Shown here piece after piece: positions 6,167-60,835 of a stretch of DNA of 64,000 nucleotides. Both the position numbers and the translations under genes were made by a program. How positions within the stretch are numbered: position 1 is the stretch's first letter; each line of letters begins with the position of its first letter. This DNA comes from Eledone cirrhosa (Eukaryota). The notes below the pieces were generated by a model, which was not told the DNA's origin, did no database searches, and worked only from the letters and a program-made list of their open reading frames with translations. The stretch is taken from the NCBI GenBank assembly GCA_964016885.1, contig OZ024750.1, positions 48,298,001 to 48,362,000 of the forward strand. Direction: 5' to 3'.

Positions 6167-6555
6167 GGCGGCGAATTGGCAGTATCGGTAGAGGGTTGGA
6201 CGCCATGCTTTCTAGCATAGTTACGTCCCTTTACGGTTTGAGTTCAAATCCCGCCGAGGTTGACTTTGTCTTTCATCCTTACGGGGTCGATAAAATAAAG
6301 TACCAGTAATGTACTGGGTAATTGTTGGCCTTGTGCCTAAAGTAGAAACAATTACATACACACAAGATGATTGATGGGCAGTATCGGTAGAGGGTCGGGC
6401 GCCATGCTTTGACGCATAGAGTTACGGCCTTTGCCATTGTGAGTTCAAATCCCGCCGAGGTTAACTTTGCCTTTCAACCTTACGGGGTCGATAAAATAAA
6501 GTACCAGTAATGCACTGGTTAATTGCTAGCCTTGTGCCAAACGTAGAAACAATTA
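6167..6555 (+). mobile_element. Two tandem copies of the main tRNA-derived SINE
   Basis: ggcggcgaattggcag head, B box gagttcaaatcccgccgagg, and ctttcatccttacggggtcgataaaataaagtaccag. Units ~6167-6350 and ~6377-6555. Confidence 0.85.
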
Positions 6556-6584
6556 CACAGACACACACACACACACACAAACAC

Positions 6585-35484: not shown

Positions 35485-36958
35485 AGGTCACCAGTTGGTG
35501 CTACTCGTAACATGTATTCCAATACAACCTGGCTCATGGTCGTTTCATTGTCGACTAAACTGGCAACCCCACCAAGGTTTCTTGGTGAGGAGGGTGACTT
35601 TGTTCATCCTGCAGGACTAAAAACAAAAACTGTCAAAGGGCAAAGGACTCTTAAGGGTCAATGGCCATCCCAAATCACTGGGAGAGATGACCCCTTAGCC
35701 TTTATCAAGGGAGAATTCTAGGAGAAGGAAAACTCTGATATAACACCTGCAACCCTGATAATATCCAATGATGTTGACTTGTTCTTTTTTTTTGGTAAAT
35801 ATCAGCTTGGTTAAGAGAGTGGGACTGGCTTTGTGCAGTGCCTTTGCTCACTATAAAAGCTTCACGGCACAGGCATTGCTTTATATCTGGAGATCTGTCT
35901 GCACTTGTCGTTACATGGTACCATGGGCCCAGCACTATGTGTCAATAACTGTCACAAGTGTAGTGTTTGTACAAGAGTTTTCAAGTCGCTGACTGGACTA
36001 AAAAGTCACACTCGTTCAGCGCATCGGTAGGGGTTCTCCTACATGGATATAAAGTAGTGGCCGTACTCGAAAACGAGTTGGCAGCTACCATGTAAATATA
36101 TATGTGTGTATGTATGTATTATGTGTATATATATCCGGGAGAGATGACCTCTGAGCCTTTGTCAAGGCAGAATTCTAGGAGAAGGAAAACTCTGATATAA
36201 CACCTGAAACCCTGATGGTATCCAATGATGTTGAGTTGTTCTTCCTTTCGGTAAATATCATCTTGGTTAAGAGAGTGGGACTGGCTTTGTGCAGTGCCTT
36301 TGCTCATTATAAAAGCTTCACCGCACATGCATTGCTTTATATCTGGAGATCTCTCTGCACTTGTCGTTACATGGTACCATGGGCCCAGCACTATCTGTCA
36401 ATAATTGTCACATGTGTAGTGTTTGTACCAGAGTTTTCAATTCGCTGACTGGCCTAAAAAGTCACACTCGTTCAGCGCATCGGTAGGGGTTCTCCTACAT
36501 GGATATAAAGTAGTGGCCGTACTCGAAAACGAGTTGGCAGCTACCATGTAAATATATATGTGTGTATGTATGTATGTATGTGTATATATATCCGGGAGAG
36601 ATGACCTCTGAGCCTTTGTCAAGGCAGAATTCTAGGAGAAGGAAAACTCTGATATAACACCTGAAACCCTGATGGTATCCAATGATGTTGAGTTGTTCTT
36701 CCTTTTGGTAAATATCATCTTGGTTAAGAGAGTGGAACTGGCTTTGTGCAGTGCCTTTGCTCATTATAAAAGCTTCACGGCACATGCATTGCTTTATATC
36801 TGGAGATCTCTCTGCACTTGTCGTTACATGGTACCATGGGCCCAGCACTATGTGTCAATAATTGTCACATGTGTAGTGTTTGTACCAGAGTTTTCAATTC
36901 GCTGACTGGCCTAAAAAGTCACACTCGTTCAGCGCATCGGTAGGGGTTCTCCTACATG
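35485..36958 (+). repeat. Family B tandem array, 457-bp period, about 3 units
   Basis: gggagagatgacc at 35680, 36137 and 36594. Confidence 0.95.
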
Positions 36959-36977
36959 TATATATATATATATATAT

Positions 36978-43690: not shown

Positions 43691-46600
43691 ATACCATTAA
43701 AGGATTCAATACAAATAATAAAATTGTTGTACATGCAGATAAAACTAGTAATATATATATCCTAGATTATGATACATATAGAATATTTATATATAAAGAG
43801 CTACACAGGAGCTATAAGAAGACTACTACTAAAAGCCTAGAATTTATTAATTCTGAGGGCCATAGTATAGTATCTAAACTGGGACTTCAGAGGCATACGC
43901 GGCTATACACCCATAACCTCCCCCCCCCGAAAAAAAATATTCTCTCTGAAGGACCATAAGGAAGATTTCATTAATAACCCTTCGATAAGACAAATCTGCC
44001 CTTCCAAATCTGACATTGGCATTATCAGTAGTAACATTTTAGATAAAATCATCCCGCAGATTAAGCACAAAGTATTCCATAAACAGTGGGGGAATACAGG
44101 TGAAGTTATTGAATGGTTTAGAGAAAGTAAAGAGAACAAAAATAAAAAATCCATTCAGTTTGATATCAATTCATACTACACCTCTATTTCCCCCATCCTA
44201 TTAAATAAGGCACTCGTTATGGCCATGAACAACAGTGACCTGACAAGATCCCAGATTGATGTCATACTTGCGGCCCGTAAAACCATAATTACATTTGAGG
44301 ATCAGTTATGGATCCGCAAAGATACGCATAACAACTTTGACATAACTATGGGGTCTAGTGTCTCGGCGCAGGTCACTGATTTGGTGGGCCATTATTTACT
44401 AAATGAAATCCATACGGACCTACCATACCTGAACGGTGGTTTATACCGCGATGATGCACTGCTCCTTATAGACTATACAATCTTTAATATAGAAAGACCA
44501 ACGAAACTGTTAAATGAAACCTTCAAAAATTATAACTTAACTATCACCATAGACAAAAACACTAAAAATGTTAACTACCTTGATGCTACCCTTTACCTAG
44601 ACTCTAAAGTATATACACCTTACCATAAAGCTAACGAAAAACTGATTTATGTAGACACCAAGACGAACCACTCTAGATCCATTTTAAACTCTATCACTAA
44701 AAGTATTTCTAACAGAATCTCTAATCTATCTCATAACGAAACCATATTTAGCAATAATTCACAGTACTACAATCAGGCATAGCTAAATCAGCTCATAATA
44801 ATGAGATTCAGTTCCTACCTAGAAAATCATATAGTTCCAACATTATTTCTCACAATATGGCCATGAGGAATAGCGGTAGTAAGAATAATAACCACCCCTA
44901 CTCTAATATGAAGGGTAGTATCAAGCCCAACTCGCACCATAGTAGACACCAAAATAGTATAAACAGAAATACCTCAATAGATATGAAAAACAAATAGAAG
45001 AAGAACTAATACATTTTTCAACTCTTCGGAAACCTATATAGGTTCCAATTCGAACTGCTTTCAATCTAAACGTCTCTACCAACTTACCTAGGGCCTTCTT
45101 CTCAATCCTAGAAAGAAACTTCCCGTCAGGCCACAAGTATCATAGGCTTTTTAATAAAAAGACCATTAACATCTCCTACTCTACCACACCTAACATAGCA
45201 TAACATATAGCTAGTAGTAATACAAGAAAACTTAATACTTATCTCCATCAAATTAAAACACAAGAGGGAAACTTTCGAAACAACATAATAACTACTAACC
45301 CTAATAGCAATAGTAATAATAGTAGTAACAATATTGAAATCAATAACATTGGGACCGACGACCCTCATAGCCCTACTGCATTACCTATCAACCAGACTTC
45401 TACGCAGCATAATAACCGACGAGATATAACCCAACATAAATGTAACTGTAGATCTAATAGAACCTGCCCTTTAGGTAACAACTGCTTAATCAAGGACATC
45501 ATTTACTCATGCACGGTCAACACTATCAACTCTTCTAAAACCTATATAGGCTCCACTTCGAACTGCTTCAAGACGAGATACAACTCACACCTTCACTCTT
45601 TCAGGAAGCATAATTGAGCCAACTCCACTTCACTAATTAGCTACATACACTATCTGAAAACTAAGAAGAGATCATATACACTTCAATGGGAAGGAGTAGG
45701 TAGGGCAGTATCGTATAAACCACCTAATAAATGTTGTATCCTCTGTCTTCTAGAGACCCATACTATAATATGTTCGGACCTTATCTCCTTAATAAAAAAT
45801 CGGAAGTGTTTGCATCGTGCCAGCACCGCTTCCGACACTCTTTCCAAAGTTTTAAACCTAGTATACAGCAATGTCAGTTTTGAACTGAGCACCTCCATTA
45901 GCTCTACACCTTTAGGGCTTGCATTGCGCCACTGCACCACACTCTTTGATCCACCCTTTCCACTATACAATTCAGCCGACCTATAACTCTATACCCTTAA
46001 TATAGTAAAATTAGATTACTTATAATTATATAGTGATGGAAATATAATTTGGATAAACTTTAAATATTAAAGGTAACAGTGAATTATATATACATTTTCA
46101 ATTAAGTGTAAACATTAATATCATTGTATATACAGGATAAATGTAGTAACATAAGGGATTTATCTAACTTAAATGCAATATGGAACAATTAATTATGTAT
46201 AGATATATAATCAAATGTATGAATTAACATTAATAACATTGTATATAAGGGATGTGTTTATTTACTCTAGAGATATATCTACTTTACCATGCAAGCAGCT
46301 ATACGTTATTACATAGCTTACCATATACTAGGTAGGCAGCAATCTAGTAACACCTTTGATATATTTTGGGAGGGTAGACTGTATCCTAGATTAACTTAAT
46401 AAAAATATATAACAATTTGTATGGGAAACTCAATTATGGTACTTTATAATAAATGATAGGCAACTTTATAATCATACCTTAATGTATTAAGAGAGAGTAG
46501 ACCGGGTTTAAATTAAATTAAATATAAATATATAGTTTCTATATTAGGCCCTCAAGTATAACACTATATAAAGTCTCTTAGAACAATGAATTTACTTATT

Positions 46601-51852: not shown

Positions 51853-51939
51853 TTATGTATATATATATACACACACACACACATATATATATATGTTTAT
51901 ATATATATAGACATATATATATATATATATATATATATT

Positions 51940-52695
51940 AGCATTGGAACTCTGAAATAGCAATATATATATGGATGTATATATAATGTATTTTGCAATA
52001 AACTTTATGCTTAATTGAAAGCATTTTGAAGACCGCATGCTATTGTTTTAGAGTAGTGACAAATTCACTTACTTCAATCTCAGCAAACAGGGGAGATAAG
52101 CCGACAAGGGCCTTGTTTCGCTTTTGGTGAATCTTATCAAGGCTAACTACCCCTCCTGTCTACTGAGATTACTGATGTTATATTCTTATAGAATTCTAGT
52201 AAATAATCAGGAGCTGATTATACAGAGCGATTGTTGGTCAGGCAGAAATTTAAAATTAGAATTGGAGCTCTGAAATAGCAATATATATATGGATGTATAT
52301 ATATGTATTTTGCAATACACTTTATGCTTAATTAAAAGCATTTTGAAGACCGTAAGCTATTGTTTTAGAGTAGTGACAATTTCACTTAATTTAATCTCAG
52401 CAAACAGGGGAGATAAGCCGACAAGGGCCTACGTTTGGCTTTTGGTGAAGCTTATCAAGGCTAACTACCCCTCTTGTTTACTGAGATTACTGATGTTATA
52501 TTCTTATAGAATTCTAGTGAATAATCAGGAGCTGATTATACAGAGCGATTGTTGAAGACCGTATGATATTGTCGGCTTATCCCCCCTCTTTGCTGAGATT
52601 AAAGTAAGTGAAATTGTCACTACTCTAAAACAATAGCATACGGTCTTCAAAAAGCTTTTAATTAAGCATAAAGTGTATTGCAAAATACATTATAT
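51940..52695 (-). repeat. Family F: ~318-bp tandem dimer plus inverted partial copy (52569-52695); hammerheads at 52099-52144 and 52416-52462
   Basis: attgga(a/g)ctctgaaatagc at 51943 and 52261. Minus strand agcc-TTGATAA-stem II-GAAAC-aag gcc ctt-GTC-ggct. Confidence 0.85.
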
Positions 52696-52878
52696 ATACA
52701 TATATATATATATATGTATATATGTATATATATACATATATATGTATATATATACATATTTATATCTGTCTCTCTCTATATATATATGTCTATATATACA
52801 TATATATTTATATGTATATATATACATAAATATATATATATGTATATGTATATATATATATACATATATATGTATGTA

Positions 52879-54436: not shown

Positions 54437-54485
<49 letters not shown>

Positions 54486-54489
54486 GAAA

Positions 54490-54670
54490 AGTATAGAAAT
54501 TATTATGAGCAAGAAGCACATTGTATGTTTAATTAAAAGCATTTCGAAGACCTTACGCTAGCAATTGTGTTAGAGTAGTGACAGTATCACTTACTTTAAT
54601 TTTCCGCAAACAGGGGAGATAGAGCTGACAGATGTCTGTTTCGTACTTTGTTGTGCTTATTAAAGCTAAT
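54490..54670 (-). repeat. Diverged family F fragment with hammerhead-like motif at 54623-54667
   Basis: agct-TTAATAA-gcac aacaaa gtac-GAAAC-aga ca tct-GTC-agct. Confidence 0.65.
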
Positions 54671-55140
54671 ATATGTATACATATTACTGTACGTATGTAT
54701 ACATATATGTATGTGCGTATACATACTTATATTTAAGTAAAAGTAACAGCTGTACTAAGAATGAGAAATGACATTTCGTTTCATTCTTTCCGTTTATCGT
54801 TTTTGGTACCCCGGCCGATTAACTCACTCGATATGCGATTTAGGCTGCTCAGCCGTTAATATGCATAAGAAAAGTATATACTTTCAGACGTTCTTTCGTC
54901 TGGCAGGTAGGTATACGTTGCTGACGATAGCTAATAAGCTTGACATTTGTACAGCGTTTCTTGAACAAATGAGCAACGATGGTTGCTAGACACTGTACGG
55001 TTTAATTCGGGATGTTTGTTTACAAACACAGCGAGCATTATAATAAATGTTCGGTGAATCCATACGTACACATATATATGTGTGCATGTATGTATATATA
55101 TATATACATACTACTGTACGTCTGTATACATATATGTATA
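54671..55140 (+). repeat. Family A unit (hammerhead 54916-54956 with mutated GAAA)
   Basis: Matches family A. Confidence 0.88.
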
Positions 55141-56340
55141 AGACTACTAACAAATTCGATTTAGAACGTAGCCGAATGGAAAGCATAGAGCAGGTAGCTA
55201 ATTCCATACACCATAGTATAACTGTAACTATCGACTACCCTTCCAAACACCCTAAGAATAGACTATCTGTATTAGACACGGAAATCTGGAATAACATTAT
55301 AGGCGAGAGAGCCCCAATTCTCCACTCACACTATACTAAACCCATGGACTCCAAATACCTGATACTCAAATCTCAACGATGTCAAGTAGTGCTATATTTA
55401 ATATTCTCATCGCCGACTTGGTACGAGTGATGAAGAACGTGTCCCGCATGTGCGACCCAACATTAATGGAAAGACACATCCAACACTTCATCAACAGCAT
55501 GCAGTTCTCTGGCTACAACCAAAGAGACAGAATCAGAGTATACGAAGGTGCCACGGAGAAGTATAAGACCCTCATAGAATTGGACATGAAAGGAATTTGC
55601 CCATTATATAGGAGCAAATTATGGAATAACTTAGATAGGACTAAACATAATATAGGGAAAGCAACCTCATGGTACGACAACCAGAGATGCCAGTGTGACA
55701 TGTTCGTGGACGCTACGCCTGGGGGATATTAGCTAACCAATTTTGAAAGGCCCGGAGAAAGTCCCACTTAAAGATTAATGTGGTAGAAAAGCCAAGAACT
55801 ACCATAAAATCCCTGATCAGCAAAACGTACCCTTTTAAAAAAAAACACTGTACTAATAGGACATGTATTATATGTAAATATAAACCCCCGAATAAACTGT
55901 AAAACTAGAAACGTAGTCTATAGCATAAGATGTAAAGATGGTACTTGCAGAAACATGACAACAACATACATAGGCAAGGCAGCTCGTAGCATAGATGAAA
56001 GTATAGACCAACACAGGTGGGAACCAAAAGGACGAAATAATGGTTCAGTACTATACAAACACGCCGAACAACAACACGAAGGTAACATAGACAACATAGA
56101 AATTAGAATAATATCTAAACATAGAAATGACCCAGCAGATAGGCAAATCAGAGAGGCCAGTGAAATAGAACTTAGAAGGCCAAAGCTAAACAGAAACAAA
56201 TACATGAAATAATTGAACACCCAAACAGACAATACTGATCTAAGAGAAGTATAAATAAATAAATAAATAAATAAATATATACACAAGTACAATAAAAAAC
56301 AAACACATATAAACACACACTAGTAAACTAAGATACACCC
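55141..56340 (+). mobile_element. 5'-truncated Penelope-like element, family P (RT palm/thumb + GIY-YIG), frameshifted
   Basis: VTIDYPS...LSVLDTEIW, HYTKPM, LVRVMKNVS, NVVYSIRC...YIGK. ORF fragments 55141-55430, 55379-55732 and 55955-56212. Confidence 0.85.
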
Positions 56341-56929: not shown

Positions 56930-59900
56930 CGTTGGTTGGGGAGTGGAGGTATGTGTTGGCGGTGTTGATGAAGTATGGAGTTGCGTCGTGTGGCGGTGGT
57001 GGTGGTGTTGTGAGCGACAAAAAAAATACAAGATCGAACGGTGCGATGGGTTACCGGTTAAAAGGTGACATAGGGAACGCGGGGGAGAAGAGTTTATGGA
57101 CGTATGGCGATGTGTTGTGGTGGTGGTGGTGGTGGTGGTACTGGGATGATATCTTCGACAAGATGATTACATGATCAGAAGTTACGGTGTGTTACAGGGT
57201 AAGGCAGACTGGGAGGGGATATAATACAGTCGATCTGTGAGCGAGGGATAATATGTGTTGATGATACTAATGATGTTAATGATTGTTGAAGTATGTGGAT
57301 GTATCTAGTGGTGGCGGTGGTTGTGTGTGCGTGCGACAGTACATTTACAGGGTCGAATTTAGCGTGGGGTTGTAGGTAAGGGAAGACAGAGGGAACATGG
57401 GGGGATAAGGTTGTAGGTGTGTATGGTAGACATATGACGATATGTGGTGTGGTGGTAGTGGCGATGGTGTGATATGATCGACATTGTATTTACAAGATCC
57501 CTTGTTATTATGGATTGTAAGGTAAAACCTATTATAGGAGACCGATCTAATACGATGTTGCAACGATGAGGGTGTATGGTGATGTGAATTTTGGTGGGGG
57601 TGATGTATGCGGTATGATATACAAATGCGGGCTTAGAAATGGTTACATGTAGTACAATAAAATAAGTTCACTGAGATGAGCGATGGTGAGACGGGGTAGA
57701 GGTGGTTATTAATATGCTGGGTCATGGTTAGTGTGATTTTTGGTGTGGGTGATGTATGCGGCATGATATACAAAATACGGGTTTACAGATGGTTACATGC
57801 AATACAATAAAATAAGATAAAATAAAATAAAATTAAAATTAAAATTAAAATTAAAATTAATAAATTCGTTGAGATGGGCGATGGTGATACGGGGCAGATG
57901 TGGTTATTATTATGGTGGGTCATGGTTAGTGCGTGGCCCTCCCCCGAATATTTGTGCAGAAAAAGGTGTTCATCCTGGTGTGTCTGCAATTGACAATTAT
58001 GTCCGACCTATAGTTTATGGCGGATTTTAATTTAATTATTTCCCCGCCTCAGACATGGCATAATCTGCAGTGGTTTCTGTCACTGGGAATATATGCCACG
58101 CGTCTTGTCAATGACCATGAAATCTGGGGTTCAATATTCCTCTCCTTGAGGTCCCAGATCAAGTAGGCCAGTTTGGTTTGGGGTCGTTTCAGTCTATGTT
58201 TGAAGGAGCTTCTGTGGTTATACCAGCGCTCATTAAACGTAGTGGATGTCGCACCTATATATGAGTACTCCTTATTGCCGGCTGTGACATCACACCGGCA
58301 AACAATATTCTTAACGAGGCACTCCCCGTTTAGTGGGCATTCGTCCCGTTTTTTGCAGTTGCAGTTGGGTGTAACCGGTGTGGTGGCACGTTGGTGGTTG
58401 GTGTCATTCGGTGTGGGTGTGGTGTGTGGGTTGGTGTGTTGTGTTGTGTGTGTGGTTTCGTTCTGGATTGTGGTGGTGGTTTGTTGCGGGTAAACCATGT
58501 GTTTTCGTATTTTTGCCCTATTAATGTGTGCTATTGTGTGGCCTAGGTTTGGTGCTGTGGAGGAAGAGAATTTTACGGTGTGTCTATTGAAGAGCTTGTG
58601 GTATTTGTGTGTGCGTGGAAAAGATTGTTCGAGAGCCCTGAAGAAGGTTCCCGGTATGTTAGTGGCGACGTGTATAGAAAAGGGGGAGTTATACCATGTG
58701 ACAGGTCTACTTCGGTTTATGCGGTGTTTAGTGAGGTTTCTGTGGTTGGGTGGTAGTTTGTATGTGTTTTGGTCAGGCGTATGTTTCATAGTGCTTCCAA
58801 GTAATCTATTGGCGTTGTGTATTTTATCTCTATTGGTACGCAAACGTGTGCGATAGTCGGAGTCGTTATTGGGGTTATAGAGTATGGCTTTATCTCCTAG
58901 ACAGTTATGTGTGGTGGTGTCTGCACTGCCGGCTAGGGAGGGTCTTAGGTTATTGTTTGTCCTAGATGTGGATATGTCTTCTATGTTCGTTTCTAAAGGT
59001 CCGGTTATGTTTAGCGGTGTTACGGTTCTATTTGGGTCGATATAAGAAATCTTCTCAGTATAACCAGCGTGTATAAGTTCGGAGGCGTAGTATTCCGCGT
59101 GCTGCTTGAAGATGTTTTCATTAGCCGACAGGGTGGACACTCTGTTGGAGACGCTTTTAACTATTGAGCTAATTATGGTCCTAGGGCGGTTGGAGTGTCT
59201 ATTGACGTATCTAAGATGTTCATTAGGTTTGTGGTATGGACGGTAGAGGCCTGAGTCTAATTCTAGGGTGACCTCTAAAAAGTTAACTGTCCTATTGTTA
59301 AGTTCGATTTCTACTGCTAAACTTGGGTCTTAAATATGTACCTAAGTCGTTTGTGTAGTCTATTTAATTGGCTATTATTAAGTCCACGTGTCAATAGTAA
59401 AGCATCATCCCGGTATAAGCCACCGCCCAAGGAGGGGATCTCGTCTGTTAATATATTTAGGAGGTATATGCCTACTACATCTGTAACCTGCGCGGAGTCA
59501 GTCAATGCCATGGTGATGTCGAAGCTATCTCGTCTATTCTGTCGTTCCCACAATATTCCGTCAAATTCTAGTAAAGTTTTGCTAGCTGTTATTATTATGT
59601 CCACTTCTTTTCTAGTGAGGCTTGATGTTTTCATGGCTGAGATCAGTGCCTTGTTAAGGATGATTGGGGATATAGATGCGTAGTAGTTCGTAATCTCCAA
59701 TTGGACTAATCGAACATTCGACTTAGTTTCAATGGCACAAAACCAGTCTATTACATCCTTTGTACAAGACCATAGGCTGAGTTTAGTTCTAATCCTAAGT
59801 TCAGGTATAATTCGGTCAATGATTGATTTACTAAGTCTACCTAGGTCCGATTTGGAAGGGGCTATGAGCCTGACCGGTAGCTTTGACTGGAAGTCCGGTT

Positions 59901-60835
59901 TATGGTCTTTAATGGATAGTCTCTTTGTCCTAGGGTTGTAAGGATAGGTCCTGTCGTCAATACTCAGTTCGGTCATTATTGTTTTCGCTTGTTTGTTAAT
60001 ATGTGCTAGGTTTTCTCGTGTTGATGTTTTGTATATTTTAGCGTAATTTTAGTTTGTAATGCATTTATTGTAGGTTTTGTACTCCAAATTATATAGGTTT
60101 CCTGTTTTATCAGCTGGTACGATAATGACAGTGCTATTCTTGATCTTTTTTATGGTTGAGGCGAGCCAGACAGGAATGCACATCTGTCAGGGTTTCGCGG
60201 TGGTTTCCTGAATCTAATTTCCTGAATCTAATTGATCCTGCTCTCAAATCCATCTAGGAGTGGGTTGTGCGGTGGGTTTTTCGTTGATTTAAAAAATCTT
60301 TTTATGTGGTTGGTGGCATTGTCAATTGAACCAGGGGCCCTCCTGTTGTTGTAGTGGTAGCCCCTCCAACGGATCCTCCTGATGAAATTATTAGTCGCTT
60401 TAGTAATAGGTCCATGTAGACATCTTCCGAAGGTATAGGAATGTCCTTTAGGGAGGAAGTGTTGTAGAACAATTCCATGGTGTTCCAGGTAAGCGCTCGA
60501 CAAAGAAAGGAGCAAAATATCCAGGGGTGTTTAGGTTAACGTCTGTGATGAGGTGTAGAGCTATACAGAGTGTAATATATTGAAAGGATAACAAGGACGA
60601 TTGATTATTCCTTCATTGCATTTATTGATAGGTGACGCGCGTTTCGCCACTGATCAGCTCAAGGTTCGATCTATATCGATCCTACCCGACTCAATAATCG
60701 GCAGCTCGACGGACCCTCTTAAAATGCTATACTGAAATGTAATACTTGCTATGTGGTAAAGATAGAGTTTCAAGAGTTTGACAACATGAGTTGTTTTGAT
60801 TGGTGGGAAGGATCAAGGCGATGTGCTGGCCTGTA

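What the first reader, a model, noticed from the sequence alone, without database searches (positions are those of the whole stretch)
51940..52695. Family F hammerheads with a compensatory U3:A8 core (UUGAUAA)
Both ~318-bp tandem units have TTGATAA in place of CTGATGA, and the diverged copy at 54623-54667 has TTAATAA. Established: C3 and G8 form a tertiary Watson-Crick pair, so a simultaneous C3U + G8A change preserves it. The diverged copy has different stem I, II and III sequences that still pair, which argues for selection rather than decay. Standard CUGANGA searches would miss this family. Individual copies carry extra lesions (CAAA in unit 2, G5A at 54623).
Basis: partly seen in the sequence, partly recalled or inferred. 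Interest (0 to 1): 0.75.

Follow-up and report, generated by a model that had tools for sequence, protein, structure and literature searches.

The report
Retrozyme family with swapped hammerhead core
This is one copy of a young, genome-wide family of ~318-base non-coding jumping elements whose predicted self-cutting RNA carries a compensated two-base swap (U3:A8) already described in other animals; its insertions bear the footprint of Penelope-type retrotransposons, which likely paste it in.

Summary
Observation confirmed. Both units carry a minus-strand type I hammerhead with core UUGAUAA. The core is family-wide: 1,904 exact genomic matches (control 0). With the core left free, 90 of the first 100 matches read UUGAUAA and none CUGAUGA. 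Across subfamilies the stems covary (16 of 25 pairs change on both sides) while the core stays fixed, so selection on the fold is supported. The three window copies are themselves damaged; G5A at 54661 is decay. Homologous sister families D and E keep C3:G8; another (G) has U3:A8, so the pair may have switched twice (not resolved). The element is a non-autonomous, non-LTR retrozyme with Penelope-like insertion marks: head-to-head arms, two fixed 3' ends 26 nt apart, (TA)n targets. The swap is not new: natural U3-A8 was published in 2011, and a ~1,300-copy U3-A8 set tied to Schistosoma Penelope elements in 2014. This scan also noted it before, in this genome and others. Cleavage and expression are untested. 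Verdict: real, new member of a known kind, modest interest.

The parts
51937..52254 (-). Full 318-nt monomer of subfamily A (9 substitutions from the subfamily majority sequence); its 3' end is the 'tail' end, followed by (TA)n
52078..52168 (-). Type I hammerhead of unit 1 with extended stem I; core U3 U4 G5 A6 U7 A8 A9 at 52140-52134; predicted cleavage 3' of C17 (52103); private C-to-A lesion in stem II at 52132
   Evidence: Logan contigs show the family letter at 52132
52255..52554 (-). Second, 5'-truncated unit (monomer positions 19-318) in head-to-tail tandem
52416..52462 (-). Hammerhead core region of unit 2: TTGATAA, G12C lesion (CAAA), altered stem III; predicted dead
   Evidence: G12 is a conserved core base (established knowledge)
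52555..52568 (.). 14-nt junction filler between the two head-to-head arms
52569..52713 (+). Inverted, 5'-truncated arm (monomer positions 148-292) ending at the internal 3' site, 26 nt short of the tail end, in (TA)n
54472..54669 (-). Separate older insertion of subfamily B, 5'-truncated inside stem I; core TTAATAA (G5A decay) at 54663-54657

Best explanation
The locus is one insertion of a non-coding ~318-nt repeat family whose type I hammerhead carries a U3:A8 pair in place of C3:G8 in about 1,900 intact-core genomic copies; it is likely a non-LTR retrozyme that is predicted to cut itself and is likely copied into (TA)n tracts by a Penelope-like element's enzymes. Shown: the core, its family-wide fixation, stem covariation across subfamilies, C3:G8 in homologous sister families, and the insertion geometry (tandem partial units, head-to-head arms, two fixed 3' ends 26 nt apart, TA targets). 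Inferred: transcription of the strand that carries the ribozyme; self-cleavage after UC, helped by the long stem I and, for the palindromic stem III, by pairing of two neighbouring ribozymes; ligation into monomeric circles; reverse transcription from two internal start sites that runs round the template past the cleavage site, giving arms longer than one unit. The three copies in this window are probably catalytically impaired by later mutations.
For: 1,904 exact U3:A8 matches, control 0. With the 7 core bases free: 1,748 matches, 90 of the first 100 listed are TTGATAA and 0 of 100 CTGATGA. Only 9 of the 1,748 have C or G at 3 with A/C/G at 8 (6 C3:A8, 3 G3:A8, 0 C3:G8). Sister family D: 78 of the first 100 of 256 matches CTGATGA, 0 U3:A8; family E also CTGATGA. 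On 17 hand-picked rows, 97% of cells pair, 16 of 25 pairs change on both sides, and slid controls pair 33-49%. In 77 loci taken from the list, 42 are head-to-head, 27 of those 42 have one arm at the unit end and one 24-28 nt short, 103 of 123 arm ends fall at these two sites, 91 of 123 abut TA repeats, and 61 of 123 arms exceed one unit. This matches the PLE structure in PMC8557442 and the two RT start sites that define the PLE tail in PMC11167929. Unit size and layout fit non-LTR retrozymes of PMC7229834. Near-intact PLE RT-GIY-YIG frames up to 1,217 codons exist in G000. Ribozymes covarying at 3 and 8 were active in vitro according to PMC3088659.
Against: No cleavage, transcript or circle was observed here. 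No autonomous element sharing sequence with the monomer was found among 35 PLE loci checked, so the driver is unidentified. None of 123 arm 5' ends lies within 3 nt of the cleavage site; this fits circles but fits uncut multimers equally well. For the anole PLE, hammerhead cleavage was not needed for insertion in vitro (PMC11167929). The predicted lowest-energy folds of the A, B2 and C domains are 2.8-4.5 kcal/mol below the fold with the core held open. The structure was drawn from these same sequences, and related rows inflate the counts.
Confidence: 0.8

Rival explanations
1. The element is PLE-mobilised, but the U3:A8 ribozyme is weak or dispensable: copies are made from uncut multimeric transcripts and the long hairpin is kept for another reason, such as protein binding or RNA stability.
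For: No pile-up of 5' ends at the cleavage site (0 of 123 within 3 nt). HHR mutants did not affect insertion by the anole PLE in vitro, and metazoan PLE ribozymes cleave poorly. Families D and G have a mismatch at the base of stem II.
Against: All catalytic bases (U4, G5, A6, A9, G12, A13, A14, A15.1, U16.1, H17) are the same in every subfamily majority sequence while stems and flanks differ by up to 35%. Positions 3 and 8 change together, never singly, at subfamily level.
Confidence: 0.12
2. The units are the 3' pseudo-LTR of an autonomous Penelope-like element, and the copies are its 5'-truncated ends.
For: Same insertion geometry as PLEs; U3-A8 is known from PLE pseudo-LTR ribozymes.
Against: Going 5', monomer position 1 is joined straight to position 318 of the previous unit, in runs of up to five units, with no coding sequence between. 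No consistently adjacent PLE frame in 95 loci. The ribozyme has a long stem I and 4-bp stems II and III, unlike the minimal PLE type. The near-intact PLE checked has an unrelated 3' end.
Confidence: 0.06
3. An ordinary satellite or palindromic repeat spread by DNA-level mechanisms, with a hammerhead-like look by chance or decay.
For: Short tandem arrays are present.
Against: Copies are dispersed over many chromosomes as 1-7 unit insertions with fixed 3' ends and variable 5' ends; full hammerhead core with covarying stems.
Confidence: 0.02

Closest known systems
Metazoan non-LTR retrozymes (coral, mussel, axolotl; Cervera and de la Pena 2020, PMC7229834, parts 2-3 of 6 read)
   Same: 150-450-nt non-coding unit, low GC, type I hammerhead with full-size stems, tandem copies, thousands per genome, self-paired monomer (circular fold -72.4 vs -52.6 +/- 4.3 kcal/mol for 60 shuffles)
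   Different: U3:A8 core; mostly short dispersed head-to-head insertions rather than long arrays; circular RNA and cleavage not shown here
U3-A8 minimal hammerheads of Cercyon Penelope-like elements, Schistosoma mansoni (PMC4209133, parts 1-2 of 4 read)
   Same: Same core covariation, about 1,300 genomic hits there, found because the standard descriptor missed it; PLE link
   Different: Those are minimal ribozymes in pseudo-LTRs of coding elements; this one has a long extended stem I and sits in a non-coding monomer
Natural U3-A8 hammerheads (Perreault et al. 2011, PMC3088659, passages read)
   Same: C3-G8 to U3-A8 covariation seen in nature and described as compensatory
   Different: Scattered examples; no homologous C3:G8 sister families analysed in the passages read
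EN+ Penelope-like elements (PMC8557442 passages; PMC11167929 parts 1-2 of 4)
   Same: 5' truncation, partial tandems, inverted 5' copy, optional 3' tail defined by two start sites, microsatellite/AT-rich targets
   Different: No ORF; tail is 26 nt rather than 30-40; the partner PLE was not identified

Membership tests
Type I hammerhead ribozyme | Core U4 G5 A6 N7, A9, G12 A13 A14, A15.1-U16.1, H17 with three helices, stem I open | tested here: met
   Met in subfamily majority sequences; window unit 2 (G12C) and the 54.6-kb copy (G5A) fail
Type I hammerhead ribozyme | Watson-Crick pair between positions 3 and 8 | tested here: met
   U-A in A, B, C, G; C-G in D, E
Type I hammerhead ribozyme | Helices supported by covariation | tested here: met
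   16 of 25 pairs with both-sided change on 17 rows
Type I hammerhead ribozyme | Match to an Rfam hammerhead model at gathering score | tested here: not met
   Best is HH9, 13.6 bits, E 3.4; 0 hits in 7 loci, including three with C3:G8 cores, so the models do not cover these families
Type I hammerhead ribozyme | Site-specific self-cleavage | not testable with these tools
   Needs an in vitro assay
Non-LTR retrozyme | 150-450-nt non-coding unit with a type I hammerhead, in tandem copies | tested here: met
   311-320-nt monomers, head-to-tail runs
Non-LTR retrozyme | Expressed as linear and circular monomer RNA | not testable with these tools
   No suitable data; needs northern blot or divergent RT-PCR
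PLE-mobilised element | 5' truncation, partial tandems, inverted 5' copy, 3' tail, microsatellite target | tested here: met
   42 of 77 head-to-head; 103 of 123 ends at two sites; 91 of 123 TA-flanked; 24 of 27 head-to-head in the similarity-picked set
PLE-mobilised element | Sequence shared with an autonomous PLE partner | tested here: inconclusive
   None among 35 loci of one PLE group; other PLE families were not searched
Autonomous Penelope-like element | RT and GIY-YIG ORF between pseudo-LTRs | tested here: not met
   Units join directly without an ORF

The most novel reading that the evidence does not exclude
Within one retrozyme lineage the tertiary 3-8 pair switched between C:G and U:A at least twice (two origins of U3:A8, or one origin and a reversion in family D). 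That gives a natural series of homologous, once-mobile ribozymes that crossed the same two-step compensatory gap repeatedly, all copied by PLE enzymes from a circle at two fixed start sites.
Probability: 0.4. Interest if true: 0.5.

Novelty: new member of a known kind. Interest (0 to 1): 0.3.

Why it matters
Ribozyme censuses built on strict CUGANGA descriptors undercount animal retrozymes: here about 1,900 intact-core copies of subfamilies A-C, plus family G, would be missed. The homologous C3:G8 and U3:A8 families offer a ready natural comparison for how a tertiary base pair is swapped and what it costs. The insertion ends give direct genomic support for PLE enzymes mobilising retrozymes. 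None of these overturns current knowledge.

Tried and rejected
RNA evidence: no RNA holder listed. The three runs laid (X1-X3, one sample, kind not recorded) are contigs; they list no other letter at the core positions 52134-52140 at 10% or more and no joint removing a splice-like segment. Ribozyme-cut linear templates: no pile-up of 5' ends at the cleavage site (loci were chosen to hold the core, and values at the unit boundary are artefacts). A fixed U3:G8 or C3:A8 intermediate subfamily: not seen; in family D 4 of 100 U3:G8 and 1 of 100 C3:A8, the same order as other single changes. G5A as a subfamily trait: TTAATAA copies sit beside TTGATAA units in the same arrays and were enriched by the query; 0 of 100 in the unbiased list. 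snRNA-type promoter in the monomer (lead from e1-8662458): 48 comparisons with U1/U2 upstream regions gave 3 weak AT-rich matches at p under 0.05, at inconsistent offsets; not supported. Autonomous partner: not found. Pfam did not confirm the window's PLE fragments (GIY-YIG E 0.042 in 1 of 6); they are called PLE-like from motifs (recalled) and from their relatives. Rfam whole-window scan returned only microsatellite-driven miRNA noise among the 150 rows shown. Papers not held: Lunse 2017, Przybilski and Hammann 2007, Nelson and Uhlenbeck 2008, Martick and Scott 2006, so measured rates for U3:A8 were not seen.

Full report
Setting. The window lies in G000, a 3.0-Gb assembly, and is rich in (TA)n tracts and fragments of Penelope-like elements. 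No call names the organism; the repeats recall a cephalopod genome (recalled, untested).

Observation. The finding covers one insertion, 51937-52713: a full 318-nt unit and a 300-nt 5'-truncated unit on the minus strand, then an inverted 145-nt arm on the plus strand. Both minus-strand units hold a type I hammerhead with core TTGATAA (52140-52134; 52458-52452). The copy at 54623-54667 reads TTAATAA. All three are damaged: unit 1 in stem II, unit 2 at G12 and in stem III, the 54.6-kb copy at G5, in stem II and by truncation inside stem I.

A DNA search gave 1,488 first-look candidates. The U3:A8 pattern has 1,904 exact matches, control 0. With the core left free there are 1,748 matches; 90 of the first 100 listed are TTGATAA, the other 10 carry scattered changes, and none is CTGATGA. 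Genome-wide only 9 have C or G at position 3 with A, C or G at 8, and none is C3:G8. The six matches to a C3:G8 version of the pattern belong to a different-looking family. So the consensus is UUGAUAA.

Selection. The U3:A8 copies fall into subfamilies with different paired stems II (GCTT/AAGC, GCAT/ATGC, GCAC/GTGC, GTAC/GTAC) and III. The 54.6-kb copy is a decayed member of subfamily B, whose intact members read TTGATAA. Homologous families with the same backbone were found beside these copies. D (75-78% identical; 256 pattern matches, 78 of the first 100 CTGATGA) and E (about 65% identical) keep C3:G8. G (1,014 candidates) has U3:A8 in all 19 segments printed from 25 loci, picked by similarity to a U3:A8 query. 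On 17 hand-picked rows of A-E, 97% of cells pair and 16 of 25 pairs change on both sides, including 8 of 13 in the distal stem I; slid controls pair 33-49%. The structure was drawn from these rows, so the counts lean towards it. The catalytic bases are the same in all subfamily majority sequences.

History of the swap. Without G, the C3:G8 and U3:A8 rows split at one branch, support 100/99 (44 of 168 monomers used). With G added and positions 3 and 8 masked (34 rows), the best tree rooted on E is (G,(D,A-C)) at 94/94, which needs two double changes. A-C plus G formed one side of a branch in 14 of 1,000 bootstrap trees, but the AU test does not reject it (p 0.34). Two switches are favoured, not shown. 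No subfamily fixed for a single mismatch was seen.

How it moves. In 77 loci fetched from the list (two already-held loci left out), 42 are head-to-head pairs of arms; in 27 of these one arm ends at the unit end and the other 24-28 nt earlier; 103 of 123 arm ends fall at these two sites; 91 of 123 abut TA repeats; 61 of 123 arms are longer than one unit. The window insertion has this form. These are the marks described for PLEs (PMC8557442, passages), and the optional tail corresponds to two internal RT start sites in the anole PLE (PMC11167929). The ends lie 140 and 166 nt downstream of the predicted cleavage site, and 5' ends do not collect at that site. The template is therefore likely a circle or an uncut multimer rather than a cut linear monomer (inference). 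Stem III is a perfect palindrome in B, C and E and near-palindromic in A, which would allow dimeric cleavage (mechanism from PMC4209133). Young PLEs with open RT-GIY-YIG frames and TA-flanked ends exist in G000, but the 35 loci checked share no sequence with the monomer beyond inserted family copies.

Comparison with what is known. Natural U3-A8 covariation is reported in PMC3088659 (passages). PMC4209133 (parts 1-2 of 4) describes a U3-A8 variant linked to Schistosoma Cercyon PLEs, missed by the standard descriptor, with about 1,300 hits. Non-LTR retrozymes are defined in PMC7229834 (parts 2-3 of 6), and their PLE origin is argued in bioRxiv 10.64898/2026.07.22.740005 (part 1 of 5 and passages). 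I saw no paper on this family or on C3:G8/U3:A8 sister retrozymes in searches. Supplements of PMC4209133 and PMC7229834 were not opened and may list similar families. Also read in passages: PMC7151607, PMC6765202, PMC3884650; a term look-up in PMC6155905 found nothing. Earlier notes of this scan describe the same kind of element in this genome and others; my reading was formed before that look-up.

Verdict. A real, well-supported hammerhead variant family in a PLE-mobilised retrozyme; the swap itself is published. Cleavage, expression and the driver remain untested. Interest 0.3; new member of a known kind.

Noticed in passing
window 63410 (-), 37300 (-), 53848 (+), 47707 (-), 30413 (+): Other hammerhead motifs of unrelated families with C3:G8 cores; the 53848 type also lies downstream of a PLE endonuclease frame in L034, so it is likely a pseudo-LTR ribozyme.
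   Followed up: partly
monomer positions ~183-188 and ~298-303 (window 52072-52067 and 51957-51952, minus strand): A 5' splice-site-like GTAAGT (GTGAGT in some copies) just after stem I in A, B, C, D, G but not E, and an acceptor-like TTTCAG in A-E, about 120 nt apart; PLEs are known to carry introns. No spliced copy among the loci held.
   Followed up: partly
families D (L076-L095) and G (L230-L254): The base of stem II is a U-U mismatch in D and an A-A mismatch in G instead of the usual G10.1-C11.1.
   Followed up: no
window 55047-56212 (+); L225-L229: Broken PLE RT/GIY-YIG fragment whose relatives include near-identical young copies with open frames up to 1,217 codons and an asparagine-rich insert.
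   Followed up: partly
window 43871-45617 (+) and 58049-60048 (-): Two further broken PLE-like RT/endonuclease fragments of another type.
   Followed up: no
L002, L004, L010: Copies of different retrozyme families sit next to each other in the same TA-rich stretches, consistent with a shared target.
   Followed up: no
L173-L194: U1 and U2 snRNA genes lie in tandem arrays (2.2-2.7 kb period) and share upstream AATTAA and TCAGT boxes.
   Followed up: partly
window 35680-36964 and 6178-6565: Other tandem repeats (457-nt and 201-nt periods) not examined.
   Followed up: no
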